Assembly (NCBI RefSeq): GCF_016026235.1
Contig: NZ_CP065613.1
Source of the DNA: Escherichia coli
GTDB taxonomy: Bacteria; Pseudomonadota; Gammaproteobacteria; Enterobacterales; Enterobacteriaceae
Direction: 5' to 3' (one strand)
DNA: 64,000 bases
In this document: piece by piece, positions 57,425 to 64,000 of the stretch
Layout of the letters: each line of letters opens with the position of its first letter
How positions within the stretch are numbered: position 1 is the first letter of the stretch
Made by a program: the position numbers and the translations under genes
The notes under the pieces: generated by a model
Databases searched by the model: none
Told to the model about the DNA's origin: nothing
Seen by the model: only the letters and a program-made list of their open reading frames with translations

Positions 57425-57453
57425 TTGAGACACTTTCAACGTAACGGTAGAAT
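57425..57453 (+). promoter_or_regulatory. sigma-70 promoter for the recombinase (TTGAGA -17 bp- TAGAAT), embedded in repeated TTTTGAGAC motifs
   Basis: -35 at 57425-57430 and -10 at 57448-57453. The 11-bp inverted repeat ccttttgagac/gtctcaaaagg (57421-57431 / 57467-57477) brackets it; further TGAGAC copies at ~57491 and ~57505. Confidence 0.55.
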
Positions 57454-57526
57454 GCACCCTCAAGTAGTCTCAAAAGGTTGTTTTTGGATTATGAGACTAA
57501 CTTTTGAGACTTCTAAGGGGAACATT

Positions 57527-58078
57527 ATGGCGATACTTGGATATTGCAGGGTGAGTACAGATGACCAATCCATCACTAACCAGCAAATGCAAATTGAAGA
57601 GGCAGGGTACAACATTGCTAAATGGTTCACTGATGAAGCTGTCAGTGGTTCTGTCAAAGCTTCTTTAAGAAACGGTTTCAGTAGTTTGTTAGCTTATGCA
57701 CGAGAAGGTGACACCGTAGTTGTGGTAGCTGTAGACCGTCTTGGACGTGACACAATTGATGTGTTATCAACGGTTAAAGCGCTACAGGCTAAAGGTGTGA
57801 CAGTTATCAGCCTTAGAGAAGGGTTTGACTTATCAAGCGCTATGGGTGAAGCAATGTTAGGCATTATGTCAACGTTGGCACAGCTTGAAAGAAGCTTGAT
57901 AGCAGAGCGTAGAAAGGCTGGTATTGAACGTGCTAAAGCTGAAGGGGTACATATGGGAAGACCTGTAAAAGCTTCTTCAGAGGCTGTACAGATGCTTATT
58001 TCACAAGGTAAAACGAGGTTGCAGATTCAGGAAGAGCTAGGAATCTCTAGAGCAACTTATTACAGACTTGCTAAATAA
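57527..58078 (+). CDS. small serine recombinase of the Hin/Gin/Pin invertase-resolvase family (184 aa)
   Basis: MAILGYCRVSTDDQ catalytic-serine motif, VVAVDRLGRDTIDVL, C-terminal HTH GISRATYYRLAK; RBS taagggg 7 nt upstream. ORF track 57389..58078. Confidence 0.88.
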   Translation: MAILGYCRVSTDDQSITNQQMQIEEAGYNIAKWFTDEAVSGSVKASLRNGFSSLLAYAREGDTVVVVAVDRLGRDTIDVLSTVKALQAKGVTVISLREGFDLSSAMGEAMLGIMSTLAQLERSLIAERRKAGIERAKAEGVHMGRPVKASSEAVQMLISQGKTRLQIQEELGISRATYYRLAK

Positions 58079-58422
58079 GTTATTAAACAGTTACATGGAT
58101 GTGACTGATATTTGGCTTTTTTGCAAAGGGGGTGCTATATCGAGAATGTACCGTACCAAGCAGCTACAGACATCTGTTAGATATTTTCGAAGATTTTTAG
58201 AAGGGGAATTTGAAGAGGGGCTACTACGATTTTATAAAAATTTTCAGATTCTGAAAAGTTACTGTACAGAATACATACAGACATCTTTAAAGTATCTATA
58301 AAGACTTTTAAGATAAAAGATAGATATCCCAGAAAGGATATCCGTTTAGAAAGCCTGTTAAGTATCTCTTAAAAGAGAGTAAACCTTGTCAATAGTGATT
58401 GCAATAAAAATTTTTATTTCTT

Positions 58423-59085
58423 ATGTCAATTGAGCATATTTTAATCGGGAAACATCATGGGGGTTCTGATTACTGGAGAACTCCATTTCTTATATTCCGC
58501 AATTTGCACCGTGAATTTATTTTCAGTCTGGATGGTGCTGCAACTGAGCATGACACGCTGTTACCACGATTCACCGATGATATTCACAATCAGTCATGGG
58601 ATGGTGAAAGGGTCTTCGTTAACCCACCATACAGCGACACTAAAACATTCCTCGTAAAAGCGTCTGAAGCAGATTTAGCGGTATTCCTGATACCGTACCG
58701 ACCCCAAACCATATACTGGCTTAAGCACATCTTCACAAACCCGCTTTGCCATGAAATCCGTATTCTTCATCGTGCAGTTAAATACCTTCCACCAGCAGGG
58801 CATAACAGGCTTACTATTAGGTCACCGTTTCCAAGTGCAGTCGTTGTTTTTAAAAAAGAACCACGTAAGCATGAAATTACACAGATGATTTGCTGTGGTG
58901 ACACATTGCTACCGTTAACCATCATTAACCGTGGTGGACTAAGAGGAAGACCCACCATTTACCCACCTGAGACGCTCGACAGCTTCATAAAACTATACAG
59001 GCAAGGCAAACCCATTAAGTGCATTGCAGATGCTCTCAGAATGCCCCTGAGCACGTCATACAGGATTGCTCAAAGGTTGAGCTAA
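58423..59085 (+). CDS. phage Dam-type N6-adenine DNA methyltransferase (NPPY motif) with C-terminal resolvase-like HTH extension
   Basis: GGSDYWRTPF...FSLDGAATEHDT...ERVFVNPPYSD resembles the phage N-6-adenine-methyltransferase family. The last ~60 aa (PIKCIADALRMPLSTSYRIAQRLS) resemble a resolvase-type HTH. Confidence 0.7.
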   Translation: MSIEHILIGKHHGGSDYWRTPFLIFRNLHREFIFSLDGAATEHDTLLPRFTDDIHNQSWDGERVFVNPPYSDTKTFLVKASEADLAVFLIPYRPQTIYWLKHIFTNPLCHEIRILHRAVKYLPPAGHNRLTIRSPFPSAVVVFKKEPRKHEITQMICCGDTLLPLTIINRGGLRGRPTIYPPETLDSFIKLYRQGKPIKCIADALRMPLSTSYRIAQRLS

Positions 59086-59465
59086 AATTCTCATAAATAT
59101 GGTCATTTACAAGACAGGTGTTTTAGATATTAAGAAGTATCCCTGTGAACAATAAATGACCAATCAGTAATTATTCTGTGAAATAATTGTTGCAATTTAT
59201 AATCACATCTGTTATAGTTTCTATGGGCTGATAAAAGAACTCAGAACATTAAGAGGTTACAACGTTGGGAGGCGTCAGAGTATTGACGGATTTTCACAGC
59301 CTCTTATTCATTCAAGGCTTTTCCTTTTGCTGTTAATGCTCGCGTAATCGCTCAGGCTTCTGAGTTCCTTTATCAGTCCATCTTCTAATTAATTCACTCC
59401 CTCTGGGGTTGGTCACTATACGTGGTCAGCCCTTTCTTTGTTTTATTTTTAAAAAGGAAAACGTA

Positions 59466-60401
59466 ATGGAAAAATTTCACATGTTTGATGACCGTATTTA
59501 TCAGATGACTAATGGCGTTAAAGCTGCCGACCGTATTATTTACACTGTCATGTTGAATGAACAAAAGTTTTATCACGATAAGGGGCAATATTATACCCCT
59601 TCATATGCTCATCTTGGTCAGTATGCTGGAATCACAAGAACATCCGTGATTGCATGTATGAAACGACTTGAGGCACATGGTTTAATCAAGAAAACTAACG
59701 TTGCAAGCAATCAGTGTGTTATTAAAGTTTATTCACTTGATGAAGTACCGGAAGTTTTAACAGAGCTTACAGCTAAGGAAGCCAGAAAGGCAAAGCTGGA
59801 GTCTAAAGTTACTCAGTCAGTCAAGAAAGATGACCCACTGAGTCAAAATTCTTTACCCACTGAGTCAAAATTTTTTACTCAGTCAGTCAAAATCTTTGAC
59901 ACGTATAATAACAGTAATAACAAGAAAGAACTTATTAATAACAATAAAGAAGATGACTTTGAAGAAGAATCTCTTAAGAAGGGAGCTTCGCTCTGTGATT
60001 CACATGAATGTGATTCTCTTGGTATTGAAGAGGCTATTAAACAATCTGACTTGGATGACCTTGATAAAGAGGCTATTAAACAAGATGAAGTAAACTCTGA
60101 TGTGAATGAAGTTAGTGACCAGCAAGATACACCTTGCCGCCTCGAATCAACTGATGATGAATTACCGGATGTTGACCTTGATGATGAAGAAGACCCTGAA
60201 GAGGAATTGAAACGTGAACAGCGTAAAGCAGAAATTAAAGAAAGATTCAGAAAGGCGAAGCTAAAGAGCAGGATTGATGAACTTGATGACTTTGATGATA
60301 GTGACGATGATTTTACTTTTACACCAAAAAAGAAAACTCACACCGAGCCAAAGAAAGAAAAAGTTAAAGTCAGACGTGTTTATGGTGGAGGAATGTTTTA
60401 A
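59466..60401 (+). CDS. lambda-O-like replication initiator (winged-helix N-domain) with long acidic low-complexity C-terminus
   Basis: YTPSYAHLGQYAGITRTSVIACMKRLEAHGLIKK DNA-binding motif typical of phage replication-protein O N-domains; iterons inside the gene; RBS aaggaaa before ATG 59466. ORF track 59409..60401. Confidence 0.6.
   Translation: MEKFHMFDDRIYQMTNGVKAADRIIYTVMLNEQKFYHDKGQYYTPSYAHLGQYAGITRTSVIACMKRLEAHGLIKKTNVASNQCVIKVYSLDEVPEVLTELTAKEARKAKLESKVTQSVKKDDPLSQNSLPTESKFFTQSVKIFDTYNNSNNKKELINNNKEDDFEEESLKKGASLCDSHECDSLGIEEAIKQSDLDDLDKEAIKQDEVNSDVNEVSDQQDTPCRLESTDDELPDVDLDDEEDPEEELKREQRKAEIKERFRKAKLKSRIDELDDFDDSDDDFTFTPKKKTHTEPKKEKVKVRRVYGGGMF
59811..59893 (+). repeat. candidate origin: four iterons (ACTCAGTCAGTCAAG, ACCCACTGAGTCAAAATT x2, ACTCAGTCAGTCAAAAT) followed by an AT-rich stretch, inside the rep gene
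   Basis: Direct/inverted repeats read at 59811-59825, 59833-59850, 59855-59872 and 59877-59893, then acgtataataacagtaataacaag; architecture like lambda ori within gene O. Confidence 0.6.
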
Positions 60402-60691
60402 TGAAAACTTATAATGGCGAGAGAAAATACCGTGACTATTTACTCAGACGTTACAGCATTTCTCGTGAAGGTTACTTGATGAAAGATACTCACGGGGAAG
60501 TTTACCGGATTCGACCGAAGAAAGAAGGGAGGGATTATTATTTCGTCGATGGTGTGACAGATTTAAAGATTGACGCTTTGAGGTTTGCAGTGATGTATCA
60601 TTTTGATATCTGGGATTCAGTCCACCAGCTACGATTAAAAGACGGTGACCCCAATAACTTAAAGGCCACCAATATTATCACAAAACGTTAG
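60401..60691 (+). CDS. HNH_3/NUMOD4-like small protein (96 aa), translationally coupled to the rep gene (ATGA overlap)
   Basis: YSISREGYLMKDTHGEVYRIRPKKEGRDYYFVDGV...VHQLRLKDGDPNNLKATNI fits the Y-x-VS-x-G-x-V...H-x-DG-x-x-NN-x-x-NL pattern of phage HNH homing-endonuclease-like proteins. Confidence 0.45.
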   Translation: MKTYNGERKYRDYLLRRYSISREGYLMKDTHGEVYRIRPKKEGRDYYFVDGVTDLKIDALRFAVMYHFDIWDSVHQLRLKDGDPNNLKATNIITKR

Positions 60692-60873
60692 TTTGTTTTA
60701 CCATCATCAATCGTAATTGTGATTTCATATTTGAAAAGCTTAATGCTGAAATTGAATCGTGTACTTTTGGCGATAATCATTTTTAAAAGCTGATACACCA
60801 GAAGCACCAGAAACACAAAGCAACCTAAGCTTGCGAATCTGTGAGATTCAGCAATTGTTTCAAGAAAGCCCAT
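60688..60873 (-). CDS. 61-aa single-pass membrane protein on the opposite strand, with strong RBS
   Basis: MGFLETIAESHRFASLGCFVFLVLLVYQLLKMIIAK...; rc shows TAAGGGGAATTAATG (SD 5 nt before ATG); driven by a near-consensus minus-strand promoter. Confidence 0.55.
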   Translation of the reverse strand: MGFLETIAESHRFASLGCFVFLVLLVYQLLKMIIAKSTRFNFSIKLFKYEITITIDDGKTN

Positions 60874-60924
60874 TAATTCCCCTTATTTATCAAAGGGAAT
60901 GACCTGTATCAGCCCCCTATAAAC

Positions 60925-60975
60925 ATAATATCATGTAAATGAGATGTTGACAATATGTTAAATAAATGTTAAGAT
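60925..60975. promoter_or_regulatory. face-to-face divergent promoters sharing the TTGACAA core
   Basis: Minus strand: TTGTCA -17- TATTAT (60948-60953 / 60925-60930). Plus strand: TTGACA -17- TAAGAT (60947-60952 / 60970-60975). Geometry resembles a phage immunity/anti-immunity switch. Confidence 0.5.
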
Positions 60976-61011
60976 TGTAGTATGAGCAAGAGATTTAAGG
61001 AGATTTTTGCA

Positions 61012-61302
61012 ATGACTCACACAGTTACGCGCCTTTTGCCAGAGGCATTTGAACGACTGGCAGCAATCAAAGCCAAATACCCTGATATGAAGCACACAGC
61101 GCTTGTTGGAGAGCTTTTAAAAGAGTCGGTAGCCCTGACCCCTTTCGATAACGTTAAGGGCGTTGCAGAGGGTTCTAAGGCCATCAGAATCACAACAGGC
61201 CAACTGGAACTACTCAAAGCACAGTCCGCAGTAGCAGGTTGCTCAATGATTCAGGTGTTAAGCGCGAAGGTTCATCAACTGGCGGATAGATTGGAGGTTT
61301 GA
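61012..61302 (+). CDS. hypothetical protein (96 aa from ATG 61012 with AAGGAG SD; alternative leaderless start at 60982 gives 106 aa)
   Basis: MTHTVTRLLPEAFERLAAIKAKYPDMKHTALVGELLKE...; no recognisable domain. Confidence 0.5.
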   Translation: MTHTVTRLLPEAFERLAAIKAKYPDMKHTALVGELLKESVALTPFDNVKGVAEGSKAIRITTGQLELLKAQSAVAGCSMIQVLSAKVHQLADRLEV

Positions 61303-61727
61303 TGCTATGTACATTTGATTATCATGCGTTTTATCGCCATAGAGGTCATCTTGTCCGTGAGAATAACGGAACATGGAAAGATTTAACTCGTAATGCTGAA
61401 CCCTTCACACACCAGCAATTAAAATCCCGCTTCTCCAGATGGAAGAATGCACCAGCAGATACTGGTGATTTTGAGATTACCCATACATTTGATTACGCAT
61501 CAGAAGATGACCTTCGCAATGCAATTAAGCTGATTGAAGACTTCAATACCTCAGAAGATGTGGATGGTGACAAATATAAATCCCGTGGTAACCGCTATAA
61601 CCGTGATGATATCACTCAGGCCATAAATGCTGGTCAATCTCAGCGATACATCACAGAAAAATATGGTATTTCACGGAGACAGTATTTCTACGTTAAATCA
61701 TTGATTAATAAGGACAATTCAAAATAA
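61299..61727 (+). CDS. hypothetical protein with C-terminal resolvase-type HTH (142 aa)
   Basis: C-terminus DDITQAINAGQSQRYITEKYGISRRQYFYVKSL resembles invertase/resolvase HTH; ATGA-coupled to the upstream ORF. Confidence 0.5.
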   Translation: MMLCTFDYHAFYRHRGHLVRENNGTWKDLTRNAEPFTHQQLKSRFSRWKNAPADTGDFEITHTFDYASEDDLRNAIKLIEDFNTSEDVDGDKYKSRGNRYNRDDITQAINAGQSQRYITEKYGISRRQYFYVKSLINKDNSK

Positions 61728-61735
61728 CCATCTAA

Positions 61736-61752
61736 GTAACGGTAGAATGCAC
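61736..61752 (+). repeat. 17-bp motif GTAACGGTAGAATGCAC, second copy in direct orientation (first copy at 57441-57457 in the recombinase promoter)
   Basis: Exact 17/17 match read at both positions, 4.3 kb apart. Confidence 0.7.
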
Positions 61753-61888
61753 TTTACAGGCAGAGTTGCACCTTAATTTGATAAATTACCTTACCAGCCA
61801 GTGCAACTCCCTCTGTAACCCGCATGGTTACTGGCCTCAGAATGGCTATTTTAAGAGGTCTGAGATGTGTTTTATAGGAAATTTAAAA

Positions 61889-62212
61889 ATGAGCAATTAC
61901 GAATTACAGATTTTTGTTGATAACGACACCGTGACCATGCTTCAACACTTCACTGATGTAGGTATCGCAATTAATTTTGATAAATTACTAAAGCTGATGG
62001 CTGATAATGCAGAAAACATCTCTGACTTTATTCAGTCGGTGGAGTTTAACGAGCCCCGAATGATGCTACCAATTACAGACAGCAGTATGAAGCGTCTTAT
62101 TATTGAGGAAACTAACCGATACAGCGTTAGCCCTGAAAAATATCTCAAGGCGGCTGTAACAATTTTGTACGCTGACAGTATTCTGGTGACGGATTCTGTG
62201 AGGGTTCACTAA
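61889..62212 (+). CDS. hypothetical protein (107 aa from ATG 61889; ORF track 61766..62212 begins at an upstream TTG)
   Basis: MSNYELQIFVDNDTVTMLQHFTDVGIAINFDKLLKLMADNAENI...; no recognisable domain. Confidence 0.4.
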   Translation: MSNYELQIFVDNDTVTMLQHFTDVGIAINFDKLLKLMADNAENISDFIQSVEFNEPRMMLPITDSSMKRLIIEETNRYSVSPEKYLKAAVTILYADSILVTDSVRVH

Positions 62213-62313
62213 TGGGTTTAATAATTGCTTGGACGTTGCTTGGCTTATTTGTTGGTTGCTGGGTGGGTAATACGGTAAATAAAAATTGATATTACCAATC
62301 TGTTAAAAAGCTG

Positions 62314-62342
62314 TTGACAAATAACCTTAAGCATGGCATAAT
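62314..62342 (+). promoter_or_regulatory. near-consensus sigma-70 promoter TTGACA -17 bp- CATAAT
   Basis: -35 at 62314-62319, -10 at 62337-62342; no ORF for the next 335 nt. Confidence 0.6.
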
Positions 62343-62677
62343 TTTAATTATGGGAGAGCAATTCTCTCTTATTTCTTTCAACAATTCCATCTACGTCTAG
62401 GGATAGTTATTCTGAAAGGTGCAATGCTTTTCGTCATGGCTTATTTAGCCCGCACTAAATAGGCCATATCAAAAATCTTTGTTCATTCATTGAATCCTTT
62501 AGATGTTTTTAATTTCTTCACCTTATGAATAGCCCTTTATAAGAAATTATCTAGGGCTATTCAGTTTTTAAAAAGCATACTTGGCAAACGCTTTTAAGTC
62601 TCTTCTAAGTTTTTTGTATGGCTGTCAAGTATGCTTTTTAAAAACTGAAATACTTTAGCTTAGAAGAGGAAAAAACA
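62343..62677 (+). ncRNA. candidate structured leader/ncRNA with a 24-bp perfect inverted repeat (62560-62583 / 62626-62649, 42-nt loop) and a second 8-bp IR (atagccct...agggctat, ~62527-62560)
   Basis: ttcagtttttaaaaagcatacttg ... caagtatgctttttaaaaactgaa read directly; region lacks any ORF; ends 28 nt before the strong SD agaggaaaaaacaATG of the next gene. Confidence 0.45.
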
Positions 62678-63388
62678 ATGACAAACGATTTATATTTTAA
62701 CGGTCGAAAGATTGATAGCTTCGGTGACTGGTCACCACAGACTGAACATCCGCTACATATTATTCAGCGTCAAGAGCATGACAAGCGTATTGAGCTTGAG
62801 CAAGAAATCCGAAGGTCACCAAAGGTAATTTCCTTTGTGTCCCCTGAGCCTCAAGAGATGCCTGATGTATGCAAAACTGAATCATTATTTAATCTTGAGC
62901 GTGAATATTACCCACTGCTAAAAGCACAGCGTATTAAACTAGATGATGCTTACGATGCTGTTAAGAACTTCGAAGAAACCTCGAAACCTTCAGAATATGA
63001 TATTGCTTACGAGATTAAGTCAAACCCGTTTATCTATTATGAAGGAAACTTTAATGATGGTTTTGGTACAGCGATTGAAGACGTTCCTAAAGTTCTTCAA
63101 AGTATCCCTGAAGGGTTCCGGTTAATTGATGTCAGACAAGCATTAAGGGGTTCTGGTCAATTTATTCTGATGACTGGTAAAACAGATGAAGAGATTCTTC
63201 AGTTAGCTGAAGCTAATTTGACTAAGCATTATTCCGGTAAACTGGATAAGTTAAAGCAAAAGCTTAAAAAAGAACTTGATAGCATGAAAGAACTTGTTAG
63301 TGAATATGAATCACAGAAGAAGATTGCTATGCAGGCTGATATTGAGCAGCTTACGAAGATTTCTCAGAAATATAGCAAAGCACTTTAA
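62678..63388 (+). CDS. hypothetical protein (236 aa) with C-terminal coiled-coil
   Basis: MTNDLYFNGRKIDSFGDWSPQ...; strong RBS AGAGGA; K/E-rich heptad-like C-terminus; no recognisable domain. Confidence 0.6.
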   Translation: MTNDLYFNGRKIDSFGDWSPQTEHPLHIIQRQEHDKRIELEQEIRRSPKVISFVSPEPQEMPDVCKTESLFNLEREYYPLLKAQRIKLDDAYDAVKNFEETSKPSEYDIAYEIKSNPFIYYEGNFNDGFGTAIEDVPKVLQSIPEGFRLIDVRQALRGSGQFILMTGKTDEEILQLAEANLTKHYSGKLDKLKQKLKKELDSMKELVSEYESQKKIAMQADIEQLTKISQKYSKAL

Positions 63389-63402
63389 TTATGAGGTGGT
63401 GA

Positions 63403-63609
63403 ATGATTGATTTAACAGAACGCTATGAGCTTATTAAAGCAATTAGCGAACGATTGAAAGAACAACCCAACAAACCAAAACGAATCAAATCATCCACCTC
63501 CTCTAAGCAAAATAACAGAATCAGAAGAATCGCTAAATGGTGTCTTGATAAATTACCAAGTGATTGTCAGATTGTCGGTGAAGATGGTAATTATTATCTG
63601 GTTAGGTAA
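63403..63609 (+). CDS. hypothetical basic small protein (68 aa)
   Basis: MIDLTERYELIKAISERLKEQPNKPKRIKSS...; RBS gaggtggtga before the ATG. Confidence 0.45.
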   Translation: MIDLTERYELIKAISERLKEQPNKPKRIKSSTSSKQNNRIRRIAKWCLDKLPSDCQIVGEDGNYYLVR

Positions 63610-63633
63610 AAATTGGTTGGGTAGAAAATCTAC

Positions 63634-63676
63634 GGGAGAGATTATCGATATTATTCGGTAGTTTCTCCCTTTTTTG
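63634..63676 (+). terminator. possible rho-independent terminator (gggaga...tctccc + T6)
   Basis: 6-bp stem with long loop followed by tttttt. Confidence 0.35.
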
Positions 63677-63775
63677 TATGTGCACTACGTGAAATCTGTA
63701 AAGCTAATATCTACACTGAAAAATAGAATTTACGTACAACACGCTTAAACAAAGGTATGAGGTGAAAAAATATGA

Positions 63776-64000
63776 ATGAGCAAATTCACAGTTGATAGTT
63801 TTATCGTTGAACTGGGCTTCAATGAGAACGTTATTAAAGGTCTGCAAAAAGTTGAAAAGGCAGCTTTGCAGTCAGCACAAAAAATTGAACGGAATTTGAA
63901 TAGAGCGTTTAAGGTCGATACCAAGCAACTTGACAGCAATTTAACGGCTTCTTTAAAGTCAATGGAGGGGAAGATTAATAAAACTTTTGACCGTCTGGAA
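63776..64000 (+). CDS. 5' part of an ORF running off the window end
   Basis: MSKFTVDSFIVELGFNENVIKGLQKVEKAALQSAQKIERNLNRAF...; RBS gaggtg upstream; no stop before the window end. Confidence 0.45.
   Translation, partial: MSKFTVDSFIVELGFNENVIKGLQKVEKAALQSAQKIERNLNRAFKVDTKQLDSNLTASLKSMEGKINKTFDRLE

What the first reader, a model, noticed from the sequence alone, without database searches (positions are those of the whole stretch)
58423..59085. Dam-like MTase fused to a resolvase-type HTH; same HTH flavour recurs in three proteins of the element
The methyltransferase core (NPPY) ends around residue 160. It is followed by a ~60-aa tail whose last 25 aa (IKCIADALRMPLSTSYRIAQRLS) look like the DNA-binding helix-turn-helix of Hin/resolvase proteins. 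Similar C-terminal HTHs occur in the recombinase (GISRATYYRLAK) and in the 142-aa ORF at 61299-61727 (GISRRQYFYVKSL). A site-targeted orphan MTase, or an MTase doubling as a regulator, would be unusual. Shared HTHs suggest the proteins compete for the same DNA sites.
Basis: inference. Interest (0 to 1): 0.5.

Follow-up and report, generated by a model that had tools for sequence, protein, structure and literature searches.

The report
Adenine methylase carrying a resolvase HTH
A small phage-type DNA adenine methyltransferase on an E. coli mobile island really does end in a resolvase-style DNA-binding domain; the fusion is conserved but unstudied, most likely gives the enzyme its DNA targeting, and shows no sign of competing with the neighbouring recombinase.

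Summary
ORF 58423-59085 (220 aa) has a PF05869 "phage Dam" catalytic core (NPPY at residues 67-70) followed by an appended resolvase-type helix-turn-helix (HTH_7, residues 175-220, with the GRP minor-groove arm).

Support comes from Pfam, a profile search of solved structures (Sin, gamma-delta and Tn3 resolvases), a confident AlphaFold model and conservation. Only about 8 of 2,173 family clusters carry the tail, all from Enterobacterales.

The core folds most like gamma-class MTases (M.TaqI), so the HTH sits where their target-recognition domain sits. I think it most likely acts as a DNA-anchoring or target-recognition module. SsoII-like autoregulation is the main rival.

The "three proteins compete for the same sites" idea is not supported:
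- The recombinase has its own five-half-site res-like cluster (57406-57510), found nowhere else in the island.
- Sister islands swap in a different recombinase cassette with different repeats, or carry tyrosine recombinases, while the MTase tail stays nearly unchanged.

Context matters. The gene lies in an ~11 kb island with a large serine integrase, a Rep gene with iterons, and tape-measure and Dit genes. The island is completely free of GATC and shares this, its GC content and tail-gene homology with Felixounavirus phages. "Dam-like" therefore probably does not mean self-GATC methylation.

The parts
58423..59085 (+). Dam-HTH gene: 220-aa orphan N6-adenine MTase of the PF05869 family with a C-terminal HTH_7 domain
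   Evidence: ORF. Pfam, PHROG, NCBIfam and PADLOC hits. AlphaFold model pLDDT 89.6. The gene is present in 144 of 5,426 complete E. coli genomes.
58465..58929 (+). Catalytic core, residues 15-169. It includes the motif I-like FSLDGAAT (D37), the motif IV NPPY (residues 67-70, nt 58621-58632) and a clade-conserved beta-hairpin (residues 153-169).
58930..58965 (+). Linker, residues 170-181 (RGGLRGRPTIYP). It contains the GRP arm (G175-R176-P177, nt 58945-58953).
   Evidence: Lower pLDDT, about 75, in the model. The GRP-x-x-Y stretch aligns with Sin resolvase residues 142-155. G171 and G175 are invariant in the clade.
58966..59082 (+). Three-helix HTH_7 bundle: helices at residues 182-193, 198-205 and 209-219. 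The presumed recognition helix is STSYRIAQRL (nt 59047-59079).
   Evidence: The recognition helix is conserved across genera as (S/R)T-x-x-RI-x-QRL.
58119..58422 (+). Upstream regulatory region that travels with the MTase gene rather than with the recombinase cassette. It holds candidate cis-elements: AAAGTTACTGT at 58255-58265, the palindrome CTCTT-AA-AAGAG at 58366-58377, and a -35-like TTGTCA at 58388-58393.
   Evidence: BLAST collinearity with L008 starts at 58119. The palindrome and TTGTCA are conserved in the Pluralibacter island L012. The motif recurs upstream of relatives in L005, L007 and L012, but the pattern was defined post hoc.
57527..58078 (+). Small serine recombinase (183 aa from the MAILGY start) with its own HTH_7. 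It is a resolvase/invertase-type protein. The longer 229-aa ORF starting at 57389 is probably not the true start.
   Evidence: Resolvase PF00239 E 1.1e-41 and HTH_7 E 7e-5. Closest solved proteins are gamma-delta and Tn3 resolvase, E 6e-31. RefSeq annotates 182-183 aa in sister loci.
57406..57510 (.). res-like or operator cluster: five GTCTCAWAAGG half-sites at 57406(+), 57421(-), 57467(+), 57487(-) and 57500(-). The first pair forms a 26-bp imperfect palindrome that overlaps a promoter-like site at 57425-57453.
   Evidence: L001, L002 and L009 have the same five-site layout; L008 has none.
61299..61727 (+). 142-aa protein found only in Escherichia, with a probable C-terminal tri-helical HTH (residues 102-140, nt 61602-61718)
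   Evidence: Only 9 homologues, all Escherichia. hhalign against the MTase-tail profile gives 85.5% probability, E 5.7e-6. AlphaFold helices at 102-110, 115-122 and 126-140 have pLDDT about 80.
59409..60401 (+). Replication-initiator-like winged-HTH protein. The true start is probably the ATG at 59466. Three iteron-like repeats lie inside the gene at 59809-59890.
   Evidence: PHROG replication-initiation families, E down to 5e-11. Repeat family D3.
56951..64000 (+). Left ~7 kb of an ~11-12 kb integrated island that interrupts mdtG and runs off the window. It contains no GATC.
   Evidence: Sister islands L001, L002, L008, L009 and L012 continue with a tape-measure gene (TMP_3), a Dit-like gene and a 506-aa large serine recombinase. 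GATC counts are 0 observed against 26 expected here, and 0-2 against 36-51 expected in whole sister islands.

Best explanation
The protein is an active orphan N6-adenine DNA methyltransferase built from two modules.
- Module 1 (residues 15-169) is a minimal phage-'Dam' (PF05869) catalytic core. Its fold is closest to gamma-class MTases such as M.TaqI.
- Module 2 (residues 175-220) is a resolvase-type HTH_7 domain, including the GRP minor-groove arm. It was captured from a serine recombinase and joined at the C-terminus, the topological position where gamma-class enzymes carry their target-recognition domain.

Proposed mechanism (inferred, not shown). The core has no target-recognition domain of its own. 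The HTH docks the enzyme on DNA and supplies most of its sequence preference, so methylation is concentrated at or next to the HTH's cognate sequence.

The target is probably not GATC on the element itself. The island has no GATC site, and neither does pinkbiff, the one phage checked from the group whose tail genes it shares.

The gene is the second gene of the early/regulatory arm of a satellite-like island, between a resolvase and the replication initiator. It probably marks island, helper-phage or host DNA during the island's replicative phase.
For: Shown:
- Both domains are real.
- All family-invariant catalytic residues, including NPPY, are retained.
- The tail-bearing clade is small, about 8 of 2,173 clusters at 50% identity. 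It has kept the fusion from 64% down to 35% identity in Escherichia/Shigella, Pluralibacter, Erwinia, Franconibacter and Raoultella.
- The tail and the preceding hairpin are more conserved than the core among 119 E. coli/Shigella variants.
- Other members of the subfamily carry different extensions at the same junction: P0135 (419 aa) after the same hairpin, and P0181, P0187 and P0221 with about 100 unassigned residues. This resembles swapping of recognition domains.
- The recognition helix is conserved across genera although the flanking DNA is unrelated and the element types differ (serine- or tyrosine-recombinase islands, and a lambda-like prophage). That fits a target that belongs to the enzyme rather than to one locus.
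- A T1-Dam relative is reported to methylate GATC with substantial off-target activity (PMC4996451), consistent with weak intrinsic specificity of such cores.
- There is no GATC in the island or in Felixounavirus pinkbiff.
Against: - No methylation data and no DNA-binding data exist.
- I could not inspect the inter-domain geometry of the model. A pTM of 0.86 suggests a fixed arrangement but does not show that the recognition helix and the catalytic pocket face the same duplex.
- A 46-aa HTH normally reads one half-site of about 6-9 bp. It may act as a non-specific or operator-specific anchor rather than as a true recognition domain.
- Conserved elements upstream of the gene (a palindrome next to the -35, and the AAAGTTAnYTGT motif) would fit an operator-binding, regulatory role equally well.
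- The two roles are not mutually exclusive.
Confidence: 0.45

Rival explanations
1. Regulatory (bifunctional) MTase of the SsoII/Ecl18kI kind. The HTH binds an operator in the promoter region of its own gene or operon. It autoregulates transcription of the island's early genes (MTase, Rep), and the catalytic domain methylates elsewhere, independently of the HTH.
For: - There is an established precedent for MTase-HTH fusions that repress their own promoter (PMC12707154, PMC2760811, PMC3978073, PMC6100179).
- The ~300 bp upstream of the gene moves with the MTase, not with the recombinase cassette.
- That region contains a palindrome, CTCTT-AA-AAGAG, directly upstream of a -35-like TTGTCA. Both are conserved in the Pluralibacter island although the surrounding sequence has diverged.
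- A motif AAAG[TA]TA(N)YTGT lies upstream of the gene in four lineages.
- The gene occupies the slot just after the recombinase, where many islands keep their regulator.
Against: - Known regulatory MTases are C5 enzymes with an N-terminal HTH. They sit next to a restriction gene whose timing they control, and there is none here.
- The upstream motif was defined post hoc. It is absent from four other relatives (L003, L004, L006, L013).
- The recognition helix is conserved across loci whose upstream DNA is otherwise unrelated.
- Nothing shows that the protein dimerises, which a palindromic operator would require.
Confidence: 0.3
2. The MTase HTH, the recombinase HTH and the ORF142 HTH recognise the same DNA sites. 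The MTase therefore competes with the recombinase at its res or crossover sites, or methylates them, and so modulates recombination.
For: - All three tails belong to the same broad tri-helical HTH class.
- A small site-specific recombinase is the immediate neighbour in most islands that carry the fusion.
Against: - Tail versus neighbouring recombinase HTH is 35% identical in the window and 20% in L008. BLASTP finds no alignment between ORF142 and the MTase tail, and hhalign reports 9% identity.
- The recombinase's inferred half-sites (GTCTCAWAAGG, five copies) are confined to 57406-57510.
- The alternative recombinase cassette in L008 and L012 has different repeats and a 35%-identical HTH, yet the MTase tail is 96% identical between the window and L008.
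- Other relatives sit next to tyrosine recombinases, or next to none.
Confidence: 0.05
3. An ordinary GATC-specific phage Dam that over-methylates host or incoming DNA or counters restriction. Its tail merely raises non-specific DNA affinity or processivity.
For: - Characterised members of the family are reported to methylate GATC: M.EcoT1Dam and its relative M.Btr190III (PMC4996451).
- The Pfam Dam match is clear.
Against: - The island has no GATC site over about 11 kb. The Felixounavirus genome examined has none over 88.8 kb. A GATC enzyme would have only the host chromosome as substrate, and host Dam already methylates that.
- The protein scores 39.6 bits against the TIGR01712 equivalog cut-off of 97.
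- Only the N-terminal half matches the Pfam model (model positions 9-95 of 169), so the DNA-contacting half has diverged.
- HTH_7 domains are sequence-specific in every characterised resolvase or invertase (established knowledge).
Confidence: 0.15
4. The tail is a non-functional fossil, or an artefact: a 3' fragment of a resolvase gene fused by accident, or a mis-called ORF.
For: The tail plausibly derives from a serine recombinase C-terminus, and such genes are adjacent.
Against: - 118 of the 120 closest database variants have exactly 220 aa.
- The tail is more conserved than the core.
- The fusion persists down to 35% identity in five genera.
- The tail is not a recent copy of the neighbouring recombinase HTH (35% identity).
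Confidence: 0.03

Closest known systems
Phage 'Dam' N6-adenine MTases of Pfam PF05869 / TIGR01712 (T1 Dam M.EcoT1Dam, HP1 Dam, VT2 Dam, M.Btr190III)
   Same: Same catalytic core family: Pfam 52.2 bits, PHROG 111, NPPY and all family-invariant residues present. It is carried by a phage-related mobile element and is an orphan, with no restriction partner.
   Different: - It has a C-terminal HTH_7 domain that about 99% of the family lacks.
- It fails the TIGR01712 equivalog cut-off (39.6 versus 97 bits).
- The C-terminal half of the core has diverged.
- It sits in an element with no GATC sites, so the canonical GATC role is doubtful.
SsoII/Ecl18kI-type regulatory MTases (PMC12707154, PMC2760811, PMC3978073, PMC6100179)
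   Same: A DNA MTase translationally fused to a small sequence-specific HTH domain through a linker. The concept is one polypeptide that both methylates DNA and binds an operator.
   Different: Those are C5-cytosine MTases with the HTH at the N-terminus. They are embedded in restriction-modification systems, where the operator lies between the R and M genes. Here the enzyme is an N6-adenine MTase, the HTH is C-terminal and of the resolvase (HTH_7) type, and there is no restriction gene.
C-terminal DNA-binding domain of small serine recombinases (Sin, gamma-delta/Tn3 resolvase, Hin/Gin invertases)
   Same: Significant sequence-profile similarity that includes the GRP minor-groove arm, the same three-helix layout, and the same position at the C-terminus behind a flexible arm.
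   Different: It is attached to a methyltransferase instead of a serine-recombinase catalytic domain. No dimerising E-helix precedes it.
Gamma-class N6-adenine MTases with a C-terminal target-recognition domain (M.TaqI, M.BseCI, CamA)
   Different: Their recognition domains are large (150-250 aa) and are not HTH domains. Sequence identity is only 14-16%.
Dam-type (PF05869) MTase domain of eukaryotic DIRS retrotransposons (PMC3783388)
   Same: The same MTase family recruited by a mobile element that moves by site-specific (tyrosine) recombination, and likewise of unknown role.
   Different: It is eukaryotic, part of a retroelement polyprotein, and has no HTH_7.

Membership tests
PF05869 phage Dam-type N6-adenine MTase | Scores above the Pfam gathering threshold | tested here: met
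   52.2 bits against a cut-off of 28.1, E 7.3e-14, but only model positions 9-95 of 169. PHROG 111 covers residues 15-151.
PF05869 phage Dam-type N6-adenine MTase | Catalytic motif IV (D/N)PP(Y/F/W) and motif I-type AdoMet-binding residues | tested here: met
   NPPY at residues 67-70 and FSLDGAAT with D37. All columns that are at least 90% conserved in a 68-sequence family alignment are retained.
TIGR01712 phage_N6A_met (equivalog of the canonical phage enzyme) | Scores above the NCBIfam equivalog cut-off | tested here: not met
   39.6 bits against a cut-off of 97.05, with only residues 15-83 aligned. The protein is a diverged relative, not an equivalog.
PF05869 phage Dam-type N6-adenine MTase | GATC (Dam) sequence specificity and m6A product | not testable with these tools
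   This needs a methylome or restriction assays. The context argues against a self-GATC role: 0 GATC in the island and in Felixounavirus pinkbiff.
HTH_7 (PF02796), resolvase-type helix-turn-helix | Scores above the Pfam gathering threshold | tested here: met
   In the full-length protein it scores 21.4 bits, below the 23.8 cut-off. The isolated tail scores 25.4 bits, above it. All 9 clade tails match, best E 1.2e-7.
HTH_7 (PF02796), resolvase-type helix-turn-helix | GRP arm followed by a three-helix bundle, homologous to solved resolvase DNA-binding domains | tested here: met
   G175-R176-P177. Profile hits to Sin 2r0q (8.9e-7), gamma-delta 1res (6.8e-5) and Tn3 5cy1 (7.6e-5). Helices at 182-193, 198-205 and 209-219, pLDDT 90 or more.
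HTH_7 (PF02796), resolvase-type helix-turn-helix | Sequence-specific DNA binding | not testable with these tools
   Only candidate motifs were found upstream.
SsoII-type regulatory MTase | C5-cytosine MTase with an N-terminal HTH | tested here: not met
   The enzyme is an N6-adenine MTase (NPPY, PF05869) and the HTH is C-terminal.
SsoII-type regulatory MTase | Adjacent restriction endonuclease gene, with the operator between the R and M genes | tested here: not met
   The neighbours are a resolvase and a Rep-like gene. There are no nuclease or defence hits.
SsoII-type regulatory MTase | The HTH binds an operator in its own promoter and represses it | tested here: inconclusive
   A conserved palindrome lies next to a -35-like hexamer, together with an upstream motif. 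There is no binding evidence.
Gamma-class N6A MTase (TaqI-like) | Motif I before motif IV, with the recognition module C-terminal to the catalytic domain | tested here: met

The most novel reading that the evidence does not exclude
The resolvase-derived HTH delivers the adenine methyltransferase to a few specific sites, making a locally acting epigenetic writer. The element that carries it is an undescribed, GATC-free satellite of virulent FelixO1-like phages. The mark could discriminate satellite DNA from helper or host DNA, or switch the island's early promoter or origin, during helper infection. That would be a natural 'DNA-binding-domain-targeted methylase' used in a phage-satellite conflict.
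Probability: 0.15. Interest if true: 0.75.

Novelty: new variant of a known kind. Interest (0 to 1): 0.45.

Why it matters
Minimal PF05869 methylases are widespread in phages, yet it is unclear how an enzyme of about 150 aa with no recognition domain chooses its targets.

A natural fusion to a well-understood, sequence-specific resolvase HTH offers a tractable way to ask this question:
- Delete or swap the HTH and read the methylome.
- If the HTH sets the target, this is a natural counterpart of engineered targeted methylases and a new way of evolving MTase specificity.

The context adds interest. The gene lies in a compact island that has purged every GATC site, carries diverged copies of Felixounavirus tape-measure and tail-hub genes, and occurs in about 2.7% of complete E. 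coli genomes. I found no paper describing such an element.

A 'Dam-like' enzyme in DNA that cannot be Dam-methylated is a paradox worth resolving experimentally.

Tried and rejected
1. Sequence search of the full protein against PDB gave nothing useful for the core. A profile of the tail was needed.

3. I looked for an invertible segment, because the neighbour matches 'DNA invertase' profiles and lies on the opposite strand in L008 and L012. BLAST shows a cassette replacement (41% protein identity, no nucleotide similarity), not an inversion. The inverted repeats flanking the MTase gene (I3, I5) are only 71-72% complementary and were not pursued.

4. Shared k-mers in the upstream regions of six relatives gave nothing above chance. 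The AGTATCY motif (5 intergenic copies) and the TTAAGT repeats are suggestive only. AAAG[TA]TA(N)YTGT was defined post hoc.

5. Genome-collection scans with tail alignments failed. There was either no conserved stretch, or 247 pattern matches of which none was confirmed. Taxonomy came from cluster members instead.

6. Rfam found nothing credible in the island.

7. PADLOC, Pfam and PHROGs gave no function for ORFs 60401-60691, 60982-61302, 61766-62212 and 62678-63388. The last is labelled 'transposase' in RefSeq but has no supporting domain.

8. Literature searches found no paper on this fusion or on Felixounavirus satellites. The Tai tail-interference paper is unrelated.
Full report
**1. What is at the coordinates**

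ORF 58423..59085 (+) encodes 220 aa.
- Its N-terminal two-thirds belong to the phage 'Dam' family. Pfam PF05869 scores 52.2 bits against a cut-off of 28.1 over residues 15-91. PHROG 111 'DNA methyltransferase' covers residues 15-151. PADLOC matches 'orphan methyltransferase' at 3.7e-12.
- NPPY is at residues 67-70 (nt 58621-58632).
- Every column that is at least 90% conserved in a 68-sequence family alignment is retained (W18, T20, P21, L28, F34, D37, A40, W59, N67, P68, P69). The enzyme therefore looks catalytically competent.
- It is a diverged member. It scores 39.6 bits against the 97-bit equivalog cut-off of TIGR01712, and only the first half of the Pfam model aligns.

**2. The tail is a genuine, appended resolvase-type HTH**

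- In the full protein HTH_7 (PF02796) is just sub-threshold (21.4 versus 23.8 bits, E 2.7e-4).
- Scanned alone, the tail passes (25.4 bits). All nine tails of the clade hit HTH_7, best E 1.2e-7.
- A profile built from those tails and searched against all PDB sequences finds Sin resolvase (2r0q, E 8.9e-7). That alignment starts at the G-x-x-GRP-x-Y arm. It also finds the gamma-delta resolvase DNA-binding domain (1res, 6.8e-5) and Tn3 resolvase (7.6e-5).
- AlphaFold2 with a 68-row alignment gives pLDDT 89.6 and pTM 0.86. The Rossmann-type core runs to a beta-hairpin at 153-169. A linker follows at 170-181 (pLDDT about 75), then three helices at 182-193, 198-205 and 209-219.
That condition is not met, so the tail is a separate domain.

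**3. How unusual is the fusion in this family?**

- An exhaustive HMMER scan of 1.84 billion cluster representatives found 2,173 relatives with E up to 1e-3.
- Almost all are proteins of 150-190 aa that align only to query residues ~15-145.
- About eight clusters (P0121-P0126, P0132, P0152; 35-64% identity) align through residue 219.
- Their tails share the pattern RGG-x-x-GRP-T-x-Y-D...LD-x-VI...G...EIA...P-x-ST-x-x-RI-x-QRL.
- Named members come from Escherichia/Shigella, Pluralibacter gergoviae, Erwinia typographi, Franconibacter helveticus and Raoultella planticola. The clade is narrow and restricted to Enterobacterales.
- Among 119 E. coli/Shigella variants the tail is more conserved than the core. 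Mean entropy is 0.153 bits for residues 170-220, 0.274 for residues 1-169, and 0.05 for the hairpin and linker at 151-174. This rules out a fossil or an artefact.
- The gene is in 144 of 5,426 complete E. coli genomes, always chromosomal, at 75-97% nucleotide identity.

**4. Fold class and the position of the HTH**

- Despite its name, then, the PF05869 core is structurally closest to gamma-class enzymes. In those the recognition module lies C-terminal to the catalytic domain or on a separate subunit.
- The HTH occupies exactly that topological position.
- Other members of the same subfamily carry different, unassigned C-terminal extensions at the same junction. P0135 (419 aa) has one after the same hairpin motif, and P0181, P0187 and P0221 have about 100 extra residues. 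This looks like module swapping at a recognition-domain slot.
- This is the main basis for my preferred explanation: the HTH is the DNA-anchoring or target-recognition module of an otherwise minimal MTase. The step from 'is positioned like a recognition domain' to 'acts as one' is inference.

**5. The 'same HTH in three proteins, same sites' idea**

The recombinase:
- The recombinase (57527-58078; the true start is MAILGY) is an ordinary small serine recombinase. It is closest to gamma-delta and Tn3 resolvase (E 6e-31).
- Its HTH aligns in register with the MTase tail, but at only 33-35% identity.

Its binding sites:
- It has a textbook res-like array directly upstream of its own gene. Five GTCTCAWAAGG half-sites lie at 57406(+), 57421(-), 57467(+), 57487(-) and 57500(-).
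- The first pair forms a 26-bp imperfect palindrome that overlaps a promoter-like site.
- No other copy exists in the island.
- L001, L002 and L009 have the same five-site layout.

The cassette swap:
- The MTase tail is nevertheless 96% identical between the window and L008, and 58% identical to L012.
- In the Erwinia and Raoultella-type relatives the neighbour is a small tyrosine recombinase. In a Franconibacter-type prophage there is none.
- The MTase HTH therefore does not co-vary with its neighbour's HTH or sites, and competition for the same sites is not supported.

The third HTH (ORF 61299-61727) is plausible but weakly documented:
- There are only nine homologues, all from Escherichia.
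- Pfam gives E 0.11.
- hhalign gives 85.5% probability, E 5.7e-6, at 9% identity.
- The AlphaFold model has a tri-helical C-terminus at pLDDT about 80 but is otherwise poor.

**6. The rival regulatory model**

- MTases fused to an operator-binding HTH are established (SsoII/Ecl18kI; PMC12707154, PMC2760811, PMC3978073, PMC6100179). Those are C5 enzymes with N-terminal HTHs inside restriction-modification systems.
- Here the ~300 bp upstream of the gene (58119-58422) travels with the MTase across cassette swaps.
- That region contains the palindrome CTCTT-AA-AAGAG (58366-58377) abutting a -35-like TTGTCA. Both are conserved in the Pluralibacter island while the flanks have diverged.
- A motif AAAG[TA]TA(N)YTGT lies 75-229 nt upstream of the gene in four lineages. 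Background is 5 hits per 146 kb. However, I defined the pattern from those same loci, and it is absent upstream of four other relatives.
- I keep autoregulation as a serious rival that is not mutually exclusive with the preferred model (0.3).

**7. Context changes what 'Dam-like' can mean**

The island:
- The window ends inside an ~11-12 kb island inserted in mdtG; its left end is near 56951.
- Sister copies in E. coli sit at mdtG-lpxL, yciI-tonB and yecE. A Pluralibacter-type genome has one at mdtG-lpxL.
- They show the full gene order: small recombinase, Dam-HTH, Rep-like initiator with internal iterons, five or six small ORFs, a tape-measure protein (TMP_3), a Dit-like tail protein, and a ~506-aa large serine recombinase.

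GATC content:
- The island contains no GATC. The window part has 0 observed against 26 expected. Whole sister islands have 0-2 observed against 36-51 expected, and the two sites in L009 fall inside an IS insertion.
- The flanking chromosome is at expectation, and no other 4-nt palindrome is depleted in this way.

The link to Felixounavirus:
- The only nucleotide similarity to phages is at the start of the tape-measure gene, to Felixounavirus (FelixO1-like) phages.
- The Dit-like protein is 74% identical to the gene downstream of the tape-measure gene in phage pinkbiff. The tape-measure protein is 50% identical at the N-terminus and 34% in the middle.
- Pinkbiff has the same GC content (38.9%) and zero GATC in 88,814 bp. 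A paper on another FelixO1-like phage, VpaE1, also reports that it has no MboI (GATC) sites (PMC4690856).

What follows:
- The island looks like a satellite or parasite of these virulent phages.
- A GATC-specific enzyme would have no substrate on the island and none on pinkbiff, the one candidate helper genome I counted. This argues that the enzyme's target differs from GATC or lies on host DNA.
- Other Dam-HTH carriers (L003-L007, L013) are not GATC-depleted. The avoidance therefore belongs to this island family, not to the protein clade.

**8. Verdict**

The HTH is appended and the MTase is an orphan. However, there are precedents for regulator-MTases, and the shared-site competition idea is contradicted by comparative evidence.
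- The architecture (PF05869 core plus HTH_7) is a new variant of a known kind. RefSeq labels it simply 'DNA N-6-adenine-methyltransferase', and I found no literature on it.
- The mechanism is unproven. I put the target-recognition/anchor role at 0.45, SsoII-like autoregulation at 0.3, a plain GATC Dam with an affinity tail at 0.15, shared sites with the recombinase at 0.05, and a fossil at 0.03.

Noticed in passing
window 56783-64000; L002 11882-23712; L008 6000-17400; L012 8100-19330: The whole island family is free of GATC: 0 observed against 26-49 expected, while the flanking chromosome is at expectation. No other 4-nt palindrome is depleted like this. The few GATC sites in L001 and L009 lie in IS insertions.
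   Followed up: yes
window 63767-63929; L002 18845-21911; phage pinkbiff MN850603 (L010, L011): The island's tape-measure and Dit-like genes are homologues of Felixounavirus tail genes. The Dit-like protein is 74% identical to pinkbiff_20, and the tape-measure protein is 50% identical at the N-terminus and 34% in the middle. That phage shares the island's 38.9% GC and has zero GATC in 88.8 kb. This suggests an undescribed satellite or parasite of FelixO1-like virulent phages, integrated by a large serine recombinase.
   Followed up: partly
window 57406-57510: A res-like array of five GTCTCAWAAGG half-sites lies directly upstream of the small serine recombinase. It includes a 26-bp palindrome that overlaps the promoter-like site at 57425-57453. 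It probably serves as the resolution site and the autoregulatory operator.
   Followed up: partly
L008 6267-7107 and L012 8604-10000, versus window 57235-58118: The small-recombinase module is a swappable cassette. It comes as a serine type on the + strand, a 41%-identical serine type on the - strand with GTCTATAGC repeats, or a small (186-205 aa) tyrosine recombinase in Erwinia- and Raoultella-type islands (L004, L005).
   Followed up: partly
window 57329-57390 versus L008 5943-6004: A 62-bp segment lies at the extreme left end of the island in L008. In this window it is inverted and sits ~380 bp further inside. It is absent from L001 and L002. This is a small rearrangement of the island's left non-coding arm.
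   Followed up: no
window 59190-59470: The region between the MTase and Rep genes is strongly structured. Folded as RNA it gives -84.2 kcal/mol, z = -5.7. It contains a 38-nt-arm imperfect palindrome (59223-59260 / 59344-59381). A promoter-like site precedes it (59190-59218) and a terminator-like hairpin follows (59405-59433). It could be a leader, a small RNA or an origin element controlling Rep. There is no Rfam match.
   Followed up: partly
window 59809-59890: Three copies of TTACTCAGTCAGTCAA-like repeats (spacing 44 and 22 nt) lie inside the Rep-like gene. This resembles the lambda-O-type arrangement of iterons within the initiator gene.
   Followed up: no
window 57436-57457 and 61731-61752: A 22-nt repeat (91% identical) contains a TAGAAT -10-like hexamer. 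One copy lies upstream of the recombinase and the other upstream of ORF 61766-62212. They may be duplicated promoter or operator elements.
   Followed up: no
window 62678-63388: This 236-aa ORF is labelled 'transposase' in RefSeq sister loci. It has no Pfam, PHROG, NCBIfam or PADLOC support, so the annotation looks unfounded.
   Followed up: partly
window 55891-56950: The island insertion truncates mdtG, which encodes a multidrug efflux MFS transporter, at its N-terminus. The same site is used in E. coli RM9088 and in a Pluralibacter-type genome. Other island variants use yecE or the yciI-tonB interval.
   Followed up: partly
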